64,000 nucleotides of DNA, from assembly GCA_964016885.1 (NCBI GenBank), contig OZ024746.1, positions 64,170,001-64,234,000 on the forward strand, given 5' to 3'. How positions within the stretch are numbered: position 1 is the stretch's first letter; every line of letters starts with the position of its first letter. Made by a program: the position numbers and the translations under genes. The DNA is from Eledone cirrhosa (taxonomy: Eukaryota). Shown one piece after another: positions 2,391 to 60,680 of this stretch. Under the pieces are notes generated by a model, which ran no database searches, was not told the DNA's origin, and saw only the letters and a program-made list of their open reading frames with translations.

Positions 2391-2513
2391 TTATCATTGC
2401 AGTGGACTATATATATATATATATATATAATCAAATGAAGCAATGGAGTAAAGGACACGCGTTGTTCCCTGTAATATAATGAGCTCAATGAAAATTTTCT
2501 GGGCTCTTCAAAA

Positions 2514-2727
2514 TATATATGAGAGAATACATGAACAGAACATGCTTTTTCATTACAAGGTATTTTTACCACCAGAGTGAAAGACAGATAAACTCTGTAA
2601 GGTACAAGAAAAACATTATAATCAAATAGATTAATAAATTTAAAAGAGTACCTCCATAACTATTGTTATGGAGGTACCCTGTAATGAAAAGGCATGTTCT
2701 TTTCGTGTATTCTCTCCAATATATATA
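2514..2727. repeat. Imperfect inverted repeat (~50 bp arms) with an internal hairpin, flanked by (TA)n
   Basis: gagagaatacatgaacagaacatgctttttcattacaaggta (2521-2562) is reverse-complementary to taccctgtaatgaaaaggcatgttcttttcgtgtattctctc (2675-2716). Internal hairpin gtacctccataac-tatt-gttatggaggtac. Confidence 0.75.
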
Positions 2728-4091
2728 TCTGCAAAAAATGCACCATTCAACAATGTAAACAAAAGGGACAGACAAGTAAATCTGTCATCAGCTATTGTAT
2801 GTGACTGAAACACATTTAGAGCCAAAGAATAGAACCATTTGCCTGAATACCCATAACTATAAAATAACCACCAGAGATGATAAGTACAACAAATAAGAAA
2901 AAGACATTGGATGAAAAAAAATGGCTGAAAAAAAATGACTGAAAAAAAATCAATAAAAAGAAAAAAATAGGACTGGAGTTTTTTTAATTTTTTTTATAGA
3001 AGATGAGGAAGAGGATAAGAGGAAAACAAGAACAGTTAAACAATAAGATTTATGATTGAGCTTAACTAAAACAAAATCAAGAAAGACTTAAACATTAAAG
3101 TCTTTCAACTGAGAAAGAAAGAGAATGTATGTAAGAGGTACGTAACAATAATGCGTTATTAAATATAGACTTATGTCTGACAAGGGAGAAAGCATATATT
3201 GCCACTGTTGTTCTCAGCTCTTCTGATGGTTTCATACGAATGAGACAGTGCTAGTCATTTTTATATAAAATAAATATATATATAGATAGTTAGACAGTAA
3301 CTGTGACATGATCACACAAGATCTATCTATGTTTATTGTGCATAATGTATTATATATGCTTTCATATTATATAAATCACCATACTACTAATATATATATA
3401 TATATGTGTGGGTGTCAATTTAAGTAGAGAGAAATCTCTGATGAAAAAAATACAACAAATGGCCCCAAACCAGAATAAATGATGAATCATTATTACAGCT
3501 TTATAAACCAACTGGTGACAAAGAGTATGGAATAAAAATCAAAACTATAATTTTTTTATTTTCTTCTCCTTCTCCTGAGATTGAAAAAGATTGCCCTATT
3601 TGTTTCAGTTTGACTAACTGATAAAATACCTTAAGGAGAGGAGAAAATTGTAAAATAATGATTATCATGAATTTTACAGCTTTTTTTGTCAATCGGTCTG
3701 TCACCATTAATGAGAGTGATGGTTAAATATCCCTCAGTTATGTCATGAATATGGTTTTATAACAGTATTTCTTTCCTAATTAATGTTAAGTACACTGTGA
3801 AGTGGAAGTATTAACAATAGGTGGTGTCCAATGTGCCAAGCTTGTCAAATACAATGAATGTTAATAACACAACATAACTACATACAACATTTTGGAATCA
3901 GTAGAACCTTAGTTATTCAGATACCATTCCTTTTCTCTTCAGTTAGGAGTACTCATCTGTTATAATTAATGTTGTTGCTCTATTAGTAAGCTGTGTTTAT
4001 ATATTTGTAACTCCAAATAACAACAAAAAGAAAACCAGAGGCTTCAAGTTTTCACTTTTTCATTGTAGTATGAATCTGAACATAACTTTAA

Positions 4092-5206
4092 CCCTTTAGC
4101 ATTTAAACTGGCCATATCCGGCCATAATTCTCTCACCTCTTTCTGTTCAAACCGGCTGTAATCAGCCACTCATACTGATGTTAAGGTATTGTTCTCAAAA
4201 TAAATAACATCAAAATCTTATAGACTCAATATTATGTGAGATAATTATCTATATATATAAAACTGAGGATGTCTGTCTGTGTGTGTGTGTGAGTTTGAAT
4301 CCCTAAAACTCGAGAACCACCCAACCGACTGTTTTCAAACTTTACACATGTAATACTTATGTTTCAGGGAGTGTTCTGAGCAAAAATAAAATAAAATGTT
4401 CAATGCCCTAGGGACCGCATTAGGCGATTTAGCGATCTCTCTCTGTAATTCTTAGTCTTTCTCTTTTTAGATACATACATATAACGTCGCGCCCTTATAA
4501 TAACTGTCTGTATGTCTGGCTGTCTGCATTACGTCACTTCCCTGAGGATGTTTGTCCCTGTGTGTGTCTGTGAGTTTGAATCCCTAAAACTCGAGAAGTA
4601 CCCAACCAACTTTTTTCAAGGAGTGTTATGCACATAAAGAATTCAACCTTTTGATCCTCTAGGGCCCCCATTAGGTGAAAAACTGCGTTTTTTCAGGTTT
4701 TTAGGGTTTTTTTTTAGGCGTTACGTCAGACTGATTTCCTTGAAATTGTAACTATGTATTAGTCAGTCTCTTCTTCATACCGTGAGCAACGAAAATCCAA
4801 CTTTTTTATGGCCTAGGGCCCGCATTAGGTGAAAAACTTCATTTTTTCAGCTTTTTAGGGCTTTTTTGAGGCGTTGCGTCTAGCCGATTTTCCCGAAATT
4901 TCAAGGCATATTATTCATATTAAAAAAATTCATTTTCATGATCCCCTAGGGCCTGCATTAGGTAAAAACCTGCATTTTTCCTGTTTCATTGAGGAAAATC
5001 TTAAAGATTATCCAGCCATCAGAGTATTCGGTTTATTTTCTTTACATATTGTCCAGGCATGCAGTTTTTCCATGATTAGATCTGTTGGCAGCCCACGTTC
5101 CAAAATACCTTATCCCGTGCAACGTCGGGTACCACTGCTAGTGTAAAATAAAGCCTTTACCACAAAAATACAATAGTATATATAGAGTAATGTAAATGCT
5201 AAAGGG
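4092..5206. mobile_element. Non-autonomous piggyBac-type MITE, interrupted by a Helitron
   Basis: TTAA|CCCTTTAGCATTTA ... TAAATGCTAAAGGG|TTAA: 14-bp TIR with TTAA target duplication. Confidence 0.85.
4248..5141 (+). mobile_element. Non-autonomous Helitron
   Basis: 5' A|TCTATATATATAAA. 3' subterminal hairpin cccgtgcaacgtcggg followed by CTAG|T. Inserted between A and T with no TSD. Internal direct repeats at 4263 and 4542, and ctaggg..cattagg four times. Confidence 0.8.
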
Positions 5207-5240
5207 TTAATTCATATACTACAAACCAGTCTCATCATGG

Positions 5241-5420
5241 TGGTGGATTGGCAGTATCGGTAGAGGGTCGGACACCATACTTTCCAGCATAGTTATGTCC
5301 CTTTACAGTCTGAGTCAGCCGAGTTTAACTTTGTCTTTCATCATTACGGGGTCGACAAAATAAAGTACCAGTAATGTACTGGGTAATTGCTGGCCTTGTA
5401 CCAAAAGTAGAAACAATTAT
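5241..5420 (+). mobile_element. tRNA-derived SINE family A (~185 bp)
   Basis: ggtggattggcagtatcggtagagggtcgg..gcctttcatcc..ggggtcgataaaataaagtaccag..agtagaaacaatta consensus, repeated more than 12 times in the window. A partial inverted copy lies at 5644-5742. Confidence 0.85.
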
Positions 5421-58308: not shown

Positions 58309-59232
58309 CATTATTGTGTAGTTTAAGATATGGTATTTCTCAGTGGTCAAACAAATAATTATTGTTTAGTGTGGTTCTGGCTAAGATATATTTCTTTATT
58401 CATTATTTATTATTATTTATTGTTTATTTATTATTTATTTATTAAGATAGACCATGGAATGTCAGTAGATTCATCCCTAGCTTTCTTTTGTAAGAACCCT
58501 GTATAGTTGACAATGCACATGTGCTTTTTATTAGTATTGATGCATCACTGAAAACTGGGTGTTTGGTTCCATTGTGCAGCATTATAGCATTCTTAACAAT
58601 AACATCTGTTAATTCTCCTTTATGTCCATTTTACTCTAGTTCAGTTTTGTTGGTTAAAATGGATTTGTTTCCAGTTTTGAACTGCCAGTTTATCAAAAGT
58701 GTAAAAAAATAAAAAAATGCACTGCATGTGAGAGGTATAAATTCTCAATTGCCTCTGAGTGTGTGCGTGCGTGTGTGTGCATGTCTGTCTGTACAAATCA
58801 ATAATAAAAAAAAAAATCAAAACACATCATGTCCTGTATATGAAATCAATGAGTATATAAAATCTAATAAGAGAACATTTTATGACTGAACTTCATTGTA
58901 CAGTGGTGTCCAGCATAAGCATCAGATAAATTTTGCTTGACTTGTCTGTACGAATCTGTTAACTTGACAGGCAGATAATTCATTAGATTTTGAAAACCTA
59001 TACAAGAGGCTGACTTGCTGATAAAGTGTGTGAAATAATGAGGTCTATTAATTTCGTATTAACACTTCGCCAAGATTTACGACATCTTTACTCCATATTC
59101 TCACATTAAATGCTCTTTTCTGTACTCAGTTCTCATTATTTCAGCAAGATAACCGTAACCTTGTTTGTATCAGTGGAACAAACTCATTATTTAGTCATGA
59201 TTGAATAAGAAGTGTATATTGTACAAAATTAC

Positions 59233-59253
59233 CTGTGCAAAGCCTTATTATAA
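59233..59253 (-). other. Candidate 21-nt microexon
   Basis: TTTGCAG|TTATAATAAGGCTTTGCACAG|GTAATT, with an upstream pyrimidine tract. Confidence 0.4.
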
Positions 59254-60094
59254 CTGCAAACACATACATGTATAGAATCAAGTAGAAGGAGAGATAGAGA
59301 AAGAGACACAAATAAAAACACACATGTGCACATATATCAACATATATCAGCGAGATTTATATCTGTGTATGTTTGTATGTGTAACAATGTGTGTGTCTCT
59401 CTCTCTCTCTATATATATATATATCTCCCTCTACTTGATTCTATGTGTGTGGTTTGTTTCTGCAGGCTGTCTATTTTGAAATTATTAAAATAACCTCACA
59501 TGGATATAAATATAATACTTTTCATATTTCATGGCTCCATTTTCCAAACCTGAACTACATTCAATACATTCTCACTATATCAAATGTAACTAATTTCATT
59601 AAGGAAAAAATACTAGTATCATAATCACTTTCATCATCATCATCGTTATCATCATCATTATCATCATTATCATCATCATCATCACACTCATTATCACCAT
59701 CATCATCACCATCACCATCGTCCACATCCTCCTCATCATCATCATCATTATATTTATCATCATCATCATCATCATCATCATCATCATACTTGTCCTTTTC
59801 TATGTTTTTCCCACCTGACTTATGGTTGGCTGTATGTCATGTCATCTGTTGTGGTGCTTCATCTCACCTCTTGCTGCATAACTTCATCATGCAACGCACA
59901 AAACAACAGAGAAAAAAAACCTGTCAATTTGCTGTTTCTTAAAATACAGAGAGGATGAATTTTATTGTTCCACCATCACTGGAAATGTTGTTTGTGGGTG
60001 GATAGAATAATGAGCCTTTGCTGTCTTTTATTAGGTCTTATTTAGAATGATTATCCTTCTCAATATTCAGCTTGCAGAGTCCACATCTTATTTG

Positions 60095-60490
60095 TATTCT
60101 ATCCTTATTCTAGTTATTTATGCCCTCAGAGCATCCTCCTTTTCTGCTAATAGATCACATAGGTAGCAGAAGCTATCAACCACTTCTATGGATCCTTTCT
60201 GTGATTGAAAAAGGTTTATATCCTTGGTGCTCCTCTCCTTGATTACCTCTATGTATCTTCTACAGACAAAGACTTCCCTTCCTGTTAGTCTACCTGTTAC
60301 CCCCACTACATCTCTTGTGTACCCAGGATTTACATTATGTACATCGTATAGAGTTTATGCCTATTCCTTTTCTACATATTGAGCAAGGCCACTTCCCTGA
60401 AGGAATCAGGGTCCTGTCTTTCCTACTTAGTAGCTCTATAGTTTACTCTCAGACACTTTGATTCCAAATTCTGTTTCCATAGTCAAAACT
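60095..60490 (-). mobile_element. RTE LINE fragment
   Basis: Reverse-complement homologous to the zinc segment and VDSFCYL region of family 1. Confidence 0.8.
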
Positions 60491-60517
60491 ACTTGCTTTT
60501 ATATATATATATATATA

Positions 60518-60680
60518 TGATATCCCTGAAATATATATAATGAAATAAATATGGTTTTATAAATATAGTTTCCATTTATTTAATATCATAAATATACTCC
60601 AAATACTTGTTGAGTGCTTTTATATCAGTTATAAATATTTACTCGTTGTTAACCCAACAATTTAAATATAACTTTCCATA
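60518..60680 (+). mobile_element. 5'-truncated HHR family D element inside (TA)n
   Basis: Matches 41858-41939 joined to 42028-42105. Keeps only the GAAA half of the ribozyme. Confidence 0.8.

What the first reader, a model, noticed from the sequence alone, without database searches (positions are those of the whole stretch)
2430..60680. Recurring architecture: hammerhead ribozyme, AATAAA, (TA)n landing site and fold-back inversion, in many unrelated short families
Seen: CUGANGA..GAAA..UH cores with pairable stems at 17256, 17665, 20721, 24660, 35221, 41381, 41600 and 41822. Decayed cores at about 2451, 3223, 18105, 20365, 31380, 38524, 47331 and 56268. These fall into at least 6 sequence-unrelated families, mostly with a palindromic loop 3 (UGAUCA, UAUAUA, AACGUU, CAUAUG). 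Most are followed by AATAAA and end in a TA microsatellite, and about half carry an inverted copy of their own 3' end. Established: Penelope-like elements carry minimal type I HHRs with palindromic loop 3 in their terminal repeats, which can work as dimers, and PLE insertions often show inverted segments. Inference: these are solo termini or non-autonomous PLE-mobilised mini-elements targeting (TA)n. Roughly one motif per 5 kb would mean a very large genomic ribozyme and hairpin load that ORF-based annotation misses.
Basis: partly seen in the sequence, partly recalled or inferred. Interest (0 to 1): 0.72.

Follow-up and report, generated by a model that had tools for sequence, protein, structure and literature searches.

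The report
Ribozyme-bearing ends of Penelope retroelements
These hammerhead motifs are real and mark the 3' ends of several Penelope-type jumping genes and of small non-coding repeats that likely borrow their enzyme, a known arrangement that is unusually dense in this genome.

Summary
Real but a known kind. A strict type I hammerhead search gives 8 hits in the window (shuffles: mean 0.04) and 51 in 800 kb of evenly spaced genome samples (shuffles: 0), about 64 per Mb. Families C and D are the pseudo-LTR ends of ORF-bearing Penelope-like elements with Hydra-clade motifs. Family F ends an RT + GIY-YIG remnant lying in the window (22816-21254). Families A, B, E and I are ORF-less head-to-tail units (2.4-2.8 kb; about 430-510 nt), like non-LTR retrozymes. 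G and H stay unassigned. Short copies are 5'-truncated. (TA)n flanks (121 of 139 ends) and compensatory stem changes are confirmed. Corrections: 2451 has no hammerhead; 18105 is intact; the 47331 core is a family-wide U4C variant; AATAAA and palindromic loop 3 occur in about half the families. In 37 of 38 inverted pairs one arm ends at a short and the other at a long 3' site, which suggests two priming events. 5' ends do not pile up at the cleavage site. Cleavage and expression are untested. This scan noted the same pattern before, on other DNA of this genome and in other genomes.

The parts
2430..2726 (.). Family I fold-back (long arm 2430-2664 on -, short arm 2675-2726 on +); truncated downstream of the hammerhead, so no ribozyme here; family unit about 499 nt
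3211..3268 (+). Decayed family D-like hammerhead
16884..17472 (+). Family B: inverted arm 16884-16963 plus more-than-unit + arm 16987-17472 (direct repeat 428 nt apart); intact hammerhead core at 17262, paired stem III, GUC site; ends at (TA)n
17566..17775 (+). Family A 5'-truncated end, intact hammerhead core at 17669 (loop 3 UGAUCA), short 3' end at (TA)n; parent is an ORF-less 2.4-2.8 kb unit
17852..18313 (-). Family E fold-back: long arm 17852-18212 (-) with intact hammerhead core at 18166, short arm 18224-18313 (+); (TA)n on both sides; family unit 490-508 nt
20290..20506 (-). Family G (old, 73-83% identity to relatives), core at 20451 with long stem II and loop 3 CAUAUG; stem I decayed; parent not found; left boundary approximate
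20635..22816 (-). 5'-truncated, broken PLE: RT, thumb, CX4CxxC linker and GIY-YIG remnant (22816-21254), 3' UTR, family F hammerhead (core 20753), end at (TA)n
24524..24748 (-). Family C subfamily end, intact hammerhead core at 24716, long tail, end at (TA)n
31387..31506 (+). Old relative of family A, core at 31392 with GAAA changed to AAAA, end at (TA)n
35172..35385 (-). Family A end, intact hammerhead core at 35274, end at (TA)n
38513..38570 (+). Decayed family D-like hammerhead followed by (CA)n
40504..41442 (+). Family D 3' UTR and end, intact hammerhead core at 41387 (4-bp stem III, GUA site), short 3' end; terminus of a Hydra-type PLE
41550..42110 (.). Family C inverted pair: short arm 41550-41732 (-, core 41657) and long-tail arm 41738-41939 (+, core 41830), tail resuming at 42022-42110 after a later insertion; terminus of a 3.86 kb Hydra-type PLE
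47258..47464 (+). Family H fold-back with U4C core variant at 47337 and long stem II; parent not found
56209..56316 (-). Decayed family F hammerhead (core 56301, GAAA changed to AAAA) with fold-back 56209-56289
60515..60687 (+). Family C fragment starting inside stem II (no CUGANGA), long tail, (TA)n on both sides

Best explanation
The motifs are type I hammerhead sequences in the 3' ends of several Penelope-like retroelement families, some protein-coding (C, D, F) and some non-coding (A, B, E, I), which were likely copied into (TA)n tracts by the elements' reverse transcriptase and GIY-YIG nuclease. Shown: ORF linkage for C, D and F; head-to-tail ORF-less units for A, B, E and I; two fixed 3' end points per young family; variable 5' ends; TA flanks; one short and one long arm in inverted pairs. 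Inferred: the enzyme nicks both strands of an AT tract and primes reverse transcription at two internal RNA sites downstream of the ribozyme, usually stops early, and the two partial copies are joined head to head. The template was probably uncut or re-ligated at the ribozyme when copied. The non-coding units probably use the enzyme of a coding family in trans.
For: C: pLTR-ORF-pLTR in L281 (hammerheads 3855 nt apart, 866-nt direct repeat, inverted copy upstream) and the ORF end 1.1-1.4 kb upstream in 7 of the 30 loci fetched for this family, some of them overlapping the 10-kb stretches. D: the tail runs into the ORF in L285, L289 and L291; about 714 codons without a stop over two adjoining stretches. 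F: RT and GIY-YIG remnant in the window; 3 of 9 other copies are colinear from GIY-YIG to hammerhead and a fourth has GIY-YIG with a rearrangement. Hydra motifs RWR/RWK, DKT and CxCX5C in the C, D and J ORFs as defined in PMC8557442 section 11. GIY-YIG matches: 150 scored of 10,595 candidates. ORF-less units. 3' ends: A at about +57-64 and +204, C at +51-60 and +143, D at +15-28 and +91-94 from the cut site; 37 of 38 inverted pairs are short + long, p = 1.4e-10 against 0.5. 44 of 49 untargeted copies run through the cut site and none begins within 10 nt upstream of it. Covariation: D 93.6% of cells paired, one stem I pair AU 13 / CG 9; C 91.3%, 5 of 20 pairs with two-sided change. In vitro precedent: PMC11167929.
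Against: No parent ORF was found for A, B, E, G, H or I, so trans-mobilisation is inferred. The ORF upstream of A in L296 belongs to another family (J) into whose 3' UTR A is nested. Covariation counts sequences, not events; the count of pairs with two-sided change does not exceed the shuffles (162/500 and 312/500), and stem III shows no compensatory change. The lowest-energy fold reproduces only part of the hammerhead in most of 13 window copies, z from -2.7 to +0.9. PMC11167929 saw no difference in start site between the two strands, which does not predict the strict asymmetry. PMC3846280 explains inverted junctions by self-priming instead. The clade was read from motifs, not from a tree.
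Confidence: 0.88

Rival explanations
1. All families are non-autonomous mini-elements with their own fixed ends.
For: B, E and I are 430-510 nt ORF-less head-to-tail units and A is ORF-less.
Against: C, D and F continue into RT + GIY-YIG ORFs; 5' ends vary from a few nt to over 1 kb.
Confidence: 0.05
2. The inverted arms arise by self-priming (fold-back) on one cDNA or on an antisense template, not by two priming events at the two cut strands.
For: Proposed for rotifer Penelope in PMC3846280 (passage); some junctions carry short palindromes.
Against: In about half of the pairs either arm is the long one, so a fold-back would have to yield sequence beyond the first start point; both arms end at family-fixed sites next to TA.
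Confidence: 0.2
3. The motifs are active host-level ribozymes that cut host transcripts at high density and form a regulatory load.
For: About 64 strict motifs per Mb; B, D, E and I have a paired stem III and could work as monomers.
Against: No sign of selection per locus: copies decay with age. PLE hammerheads cleave weakly in vitro (PMC4209133); 1 of 9 frog retrozyme dimers cleaved (10.64898/2026.07.22.740005).
Confidence: 0.1
4. Chance matches in AT-rich, microsatellite-rich DNA.
For: The core is short and stem I of C and F is A/U-rich.
Against: 8 against 0.04 in the window and 51 against 0 in five shuffles of 800 kb; families with many 99-100% identical copies.
Confidence: 0.01

Closest known systems
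Hydra-clade EN+ Penelope-like elements (PMC8557442 section 11; Hydra-1_Obim in its File S1)
   Same: C-terminal GIY-YIG, RWK-like, DKT and CxCX5C motifs, canonical hammerhead, (TA)n insertion, 5' truncation, inverted copy with one-sided tail (families C and D).
   Different: Longer elements (C 3.86 kb; D 3' UTR about 3 kb) than the '<3 kb' described; many young copies; tails of about 65-145 nt against 30-40 bp; several unrelated families at once.
Neptune/Nematis-type PLEs with CX2-5CxxC linker (PMC8557442)
   Same: Family F remnant has RT, a CX4CxxC linker and GIY-YIG, with a short-stem-III palindromic hammerhead at its 3' end.
   Different: ORF is broken; the exact clade was not tested by a tree.
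Metazoan non-LTR retrozymes (PMC7229834; bioRxiv 10.64898/2026.07.22.740005)
   Same: Non-coding head-to-tail units of a few hundred nt with one type I hammerhead, co-existing with PLEs (B, E, I; also a 310-bp array family elsewhere in the genome).
   Different: Seen here as dispersed truncated or slightly more-than-unit copies with PLE-style inversions, not as long arrays; circular RNA not tested; family A is far longer (2.4-2.8 kb).
Anole Poseidon element PAc (PMC11167929)
   Same: Two internal reverse-transcription start sites define short and tailed 3' ends; AT-rich target; uncut RNA as template.
   Different: In C and D both end points lie upstream of the ORF's first ATG, whereas PAc starts 111-118 nt inside the ORF; the strict one-short-one-long pairing was not reported in the parts read.

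Membership tests
Type I hammerhead ribozyme | CUGANGA / GAAA / NUH core with stems I-III | tested here: met
   8 strict window hits against 0.04 in shuffles; not met at 2451
Type I hammerhead ribozyme | Stem covariation among homology-collected members | tested here: met
   D: stem I pair AU 13 / CG 9; C: 5 stem II pairs with two-sided change; none in stem III; relatedness caveat
Type I hammerhead ribozyme | Match to an Rfam hammerhead model | tested here: not met
   none listed (best 150 of 243)
Type I hammerhead ribozyme | Self-cleavage | not testable with these tools
   no assay
EN+ Penelope-like element | ORF with RT and GIY-YIG colinear with the terminus | tested here: met
   C, D, F; not found for A, B, E, G, H, I
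EN+ Penelope-like element | Partial tandem (pLTR), inverted 5'-truncated copy, one-sided tail | tested here: met
   L281, L285, L293, L294; 37 of 38 pairs; tails longer than 30-40 bp
Hydra clade | RWK-like, DKT, CxCX5C linker, CxxC and CxH motifs, C-terminal endonuclease | tested here: met
   read in C and D ORFs, with RWR in place of RWK; RWK in family J; DKT in 111 and CxCX5C in 109 of 120 homologues
Hydra clade | (TA)n insertion | tested here: met
   36/39 (C) and 43/50 (D) ends
Hydra clade | Length generally under 3 kb | tested here: not met
   C unit 3855 nt; D longer, owing to long 3' UTRs; a tendency in the paper, not a strict criterion
Hydra clade | Placement in the clade by RT phylogeny | not tested
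   no tree with named reference elements was built
Neptune/Nematis clades (family F) | CX2-5CxxC linker before GIY-YIG | tested here: met
   read at about window 21650-21625 on the - strand; does not separate the two clades
Non-LTR retrozyme (B, E, I) | Non-coding head-to-tail unit of a few hundred nt with one type I hammerhead | tested here: met
   units 430-438, 490-508 and 499 nt; no convincing similarity to 133 PLE proteins
Non-LTR retrozyme (B, E, I) | Tandem arrays with two or more complete ribozymes | tested here: inconclusive
   only more-than-unit copies seen in the fetched loci
Non-LTR retrozyme (B, E, I) | Linear and circular monomer RNA | not testable with these tools
   no RNA data

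The most novel reading that the evidence does not exclude
Each inverted insertion is built by two priming events, one on each cut strand, that are forced to use different start sites on the RNA (one short, one long, 65-145 nt apart and upstream of the ORF). This rule holds across coding Hydra elements and a 2.4-2.8 kb non-coding passenger, in a genome carrying roughly 190,000 intact hammerheads.
Probability: 0.45. Interest if true: 0.55.

Novelty: new member of a known kind. Interest (0 to 1): 0.3.

Why it matters
The architecture itself is in print. Two things could matter. First, young families with many near-identical copies and a near-strict short/long arm rule give a clean natural test set for how Penelope-like elements make inverted ends and tails, which is still unsettled. 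Second, the extrapolated count of about 190,000 strict motifs (bootstrap 112,000-281,000) is at or above the 126,247 reported for axolotl (PMC7229834) and far above about 9,000 for Xenopus tropicalis (PMC4209133), though descriptors differ. Families with a paired stem III (B, D, E, I) are good candidates for monomer-active animal hammerheads.

Tried and rejected
Family A as the end of the Hydra ORF in L296: rejected. That ORF family (125 scored matches, several 719-codon frames) ends in a different hammerhead in 3 of 3 fetched copies, and its 3' UTR breaks where A begins. Family H as the end of the ORF in L127: rejected, other insertions lie between. An ORF-start remnant in the family A tail: only a suggestive NFG word, no significant match. 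5' ends piling at the cut site: not seen; the filter favours longer alignments and subfamily divergence can mimic an end. AATAAA as the determinant of the 3' end: rejected; it is absent from B, D, E and F, overlaps the A-rich stem I strand in C-like families, and long-tail copies run far past it. Rfam scans: no hammerhead family listed. RNA data: no RNA holder listed; laying two contig runs of unknown kind on L281 showed far greater depth over the terminus than the ORF and no intron-like joint, which is not evidence on expression or copy number. Pfam on 20 of the window's 133 open frames missed the PLE remnants except weak RT hits; tblastn found them. The organism was not determined; octopus papers were read as context only.
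Full report
Observation. A descriptor needing the CUGANGA, GAAA and NUH core plus three stems found 8 motifs in the window against a mean of 0.04 (maximum 1) in 100 shuffles, and 51 motifs in 80 evenly spaced 10-kb stretches against 0 in each of five shuffles. 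That is 64 per Mb (bootstrap over stretches 38-94), or 41 per Mb without a 310-bp tandem family; 23 of 80 stretches hold at least one. Scaled to 3.0 Gb this is about 190,000 motifs. 47337 carries a U4C core shared by 19 of 23 aligned copies, a variant known in nature (PMC3088659, one passage). 2451 is not a hammerhead: 20 relatives show that family's ribozyme lies further upstream and the window copy is cut off before it.

General claims. AATAAA follows the cut site in 9 of 15 named sites and 4 of 8 families and in 6 of 20 multi-member clusters, above the 2.6% background but not general. Loop 3 is palindromic in 11 of 20 clusters; B, D, E and I have a real stem III. TA-like DNA follows 121 of 139 mapped 3' ends of A, C and D against 5.7% of random positions. 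Six of 16 window insertions have an inverted arm. In members collected by sequence similarity alone, 93.6% (D, 24 sequences) and 91.3% (C, 38 sequences) of cells pair, with two-sided changes in stem I of D and stem II of C. The number of such pairs does not beat the shuffles, stem III is nearly invariant, and kin share changes. Energy folding of 13 window copies gives the hammerhead only in part.

What the families are. The genome holds many GIY-YIG frames (150 scored of 10,595 candidates), several fused to RT. Family C is the end of a 3.86 kb element: L281 shows hammerhead, ORF (frameshifted in that copy), 3' UTR, hammerhead, and an inverted copy upstream; 7 of the 30 loci fetched for this family have the ORF end 1.1-1.4 kb upstream. 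Family D's tail runs into an ORF in three loci, one with about 714 codons free of stops. Both proteins show RWR, DKT and CxCX5C, matching the Hydra clade as defined in PMC8557442 (section 11); a Hydra family is already listed there for Octopus bimaculoides (File S1). Family F lies about 500 nt behind a broken RT + GIY-YIG frame in the window; 3 of 9 other copies are colinear from GIY-YIG to ribozyme. Family A forms a 2.4-2.8 kb head-to-tail unit with no ATG frame over 86 codons in two loci. I first took the ORF in L296 for its parent; three long-frame copies of that ORF end in another hammerhead, so A is only nested there. B, E and I are head-to-tail units of 430-438, 490-508 and 499 nt with no convincing protein match. 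G and H are old and their parents were not found.

Mechanism. Shown: each young family has two 3' end points, at about +57-64 and +204 (A), +51-60 and +143 (C), +15-28 and +91-94 (D) from the cut site; alignment into TA inflates these by a few bases. Of 42 divergent inverted pairs, 4 with a read-through arm were dropped; 37 of the other 38 join one short and one long end. These loci were mostly top hits of searches, so they are young copies, not a random sample. Of 49 copies not picked by a search, 44 run through the cut site, none starts in the 10 nt before it and 5 start after it. Inferred: the element's protein nicks both strands of an AT tract, primes at two internal RNA sites, stops early, and the partial copies are joined head to head; the template was uncut or re-ligated. 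This follows the anole element studied in vitro, which cuts both strands, starts at two internal sites and does not need ribozyme cleavage (PMC11167929, parts 1-2 of 4). That study saw no strand difference in start site, and PMC3846280 (passages) favours self-priming, so the two-priming step remains open.

Known or new. Hammerheads in PLE termini, mostly as single truncated copies, are described in PMC4209133 (parts 1-2 of 4). Inverted copies, one-sided tails and (TA)n targets are in PMC8557442 (passages, outline, section 11, File S1 rows). Non-coding hammerhead units and their likely PLE origin are in PMC7229834 (passages) and bioRxiv 10.64898/2026.07.22.740005 (parts 1-3 of 5; supplements closed). 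Searches for hammerhead with octopus or cephalopod listed no paper on such a survey, and two cephalopod repeat papers contain no 'hammerhead' or 'ribozyme' in the main text (PMC13282606, PMC8967140; term searches); the library lacks most subscription papers. Earlier notes of this scan, seen after my measurements, report the same reading and the short/long pairing on other pieces of this genome; they are not independent support.

Verdict. A real, dense and well-formed example of a known architecture: new members of Hydra-type and Neptune-type PLEs and of retrozyme-like passengers. The near-strict arm asymmetry, the long tails and the motif density are the points worth following. Interest 0.3.

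Noticed in passing
window 14-1176 (-): A second broken PLE reverse transcriptase remnant, 58% identical to a 938-codon RT + GIY-YIG frame elsewhere; it runs off the left end of the window.
   Followed up: no
window 20533-20594 (+): Tail-only fragment of another PLE family whose hammerhead (CUU site) lies about 390 nt behind its ORF in L144, L145, L148 and L154.
   Followed up: partly
L034, L039, L043, L107: A 310-bp tandem repeat with one hammerhead per unit (arrays of 3 or more), a classical non-LTR retrozyme; 18 of the 51 sampled motifs.
   Followed up: no
L381-L383: Hydra-type family J with 719-codon open frames and 125 scored copies at 92-100% identity, so recently active; its hammerhead has a non-palindromic stem III.
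   Followed up: partly
window 35412 (+): A minimal hammerhead-like word antisense to family A; the core is not conserved in other family A copies, so probably chance.
   Followed up: partly
L143:8199 and 8658; L288:5848 and 6320: Further ORF-less hammerhead units in tandem, about 460-470 nt apart.
   Followed up: no
window 6685-8790, 28844-29467, 31813-32970: LINE-type reverse transcriptase fragments unrelated to the hammerhead families; the RTE label is from recall.
   Followed up: no
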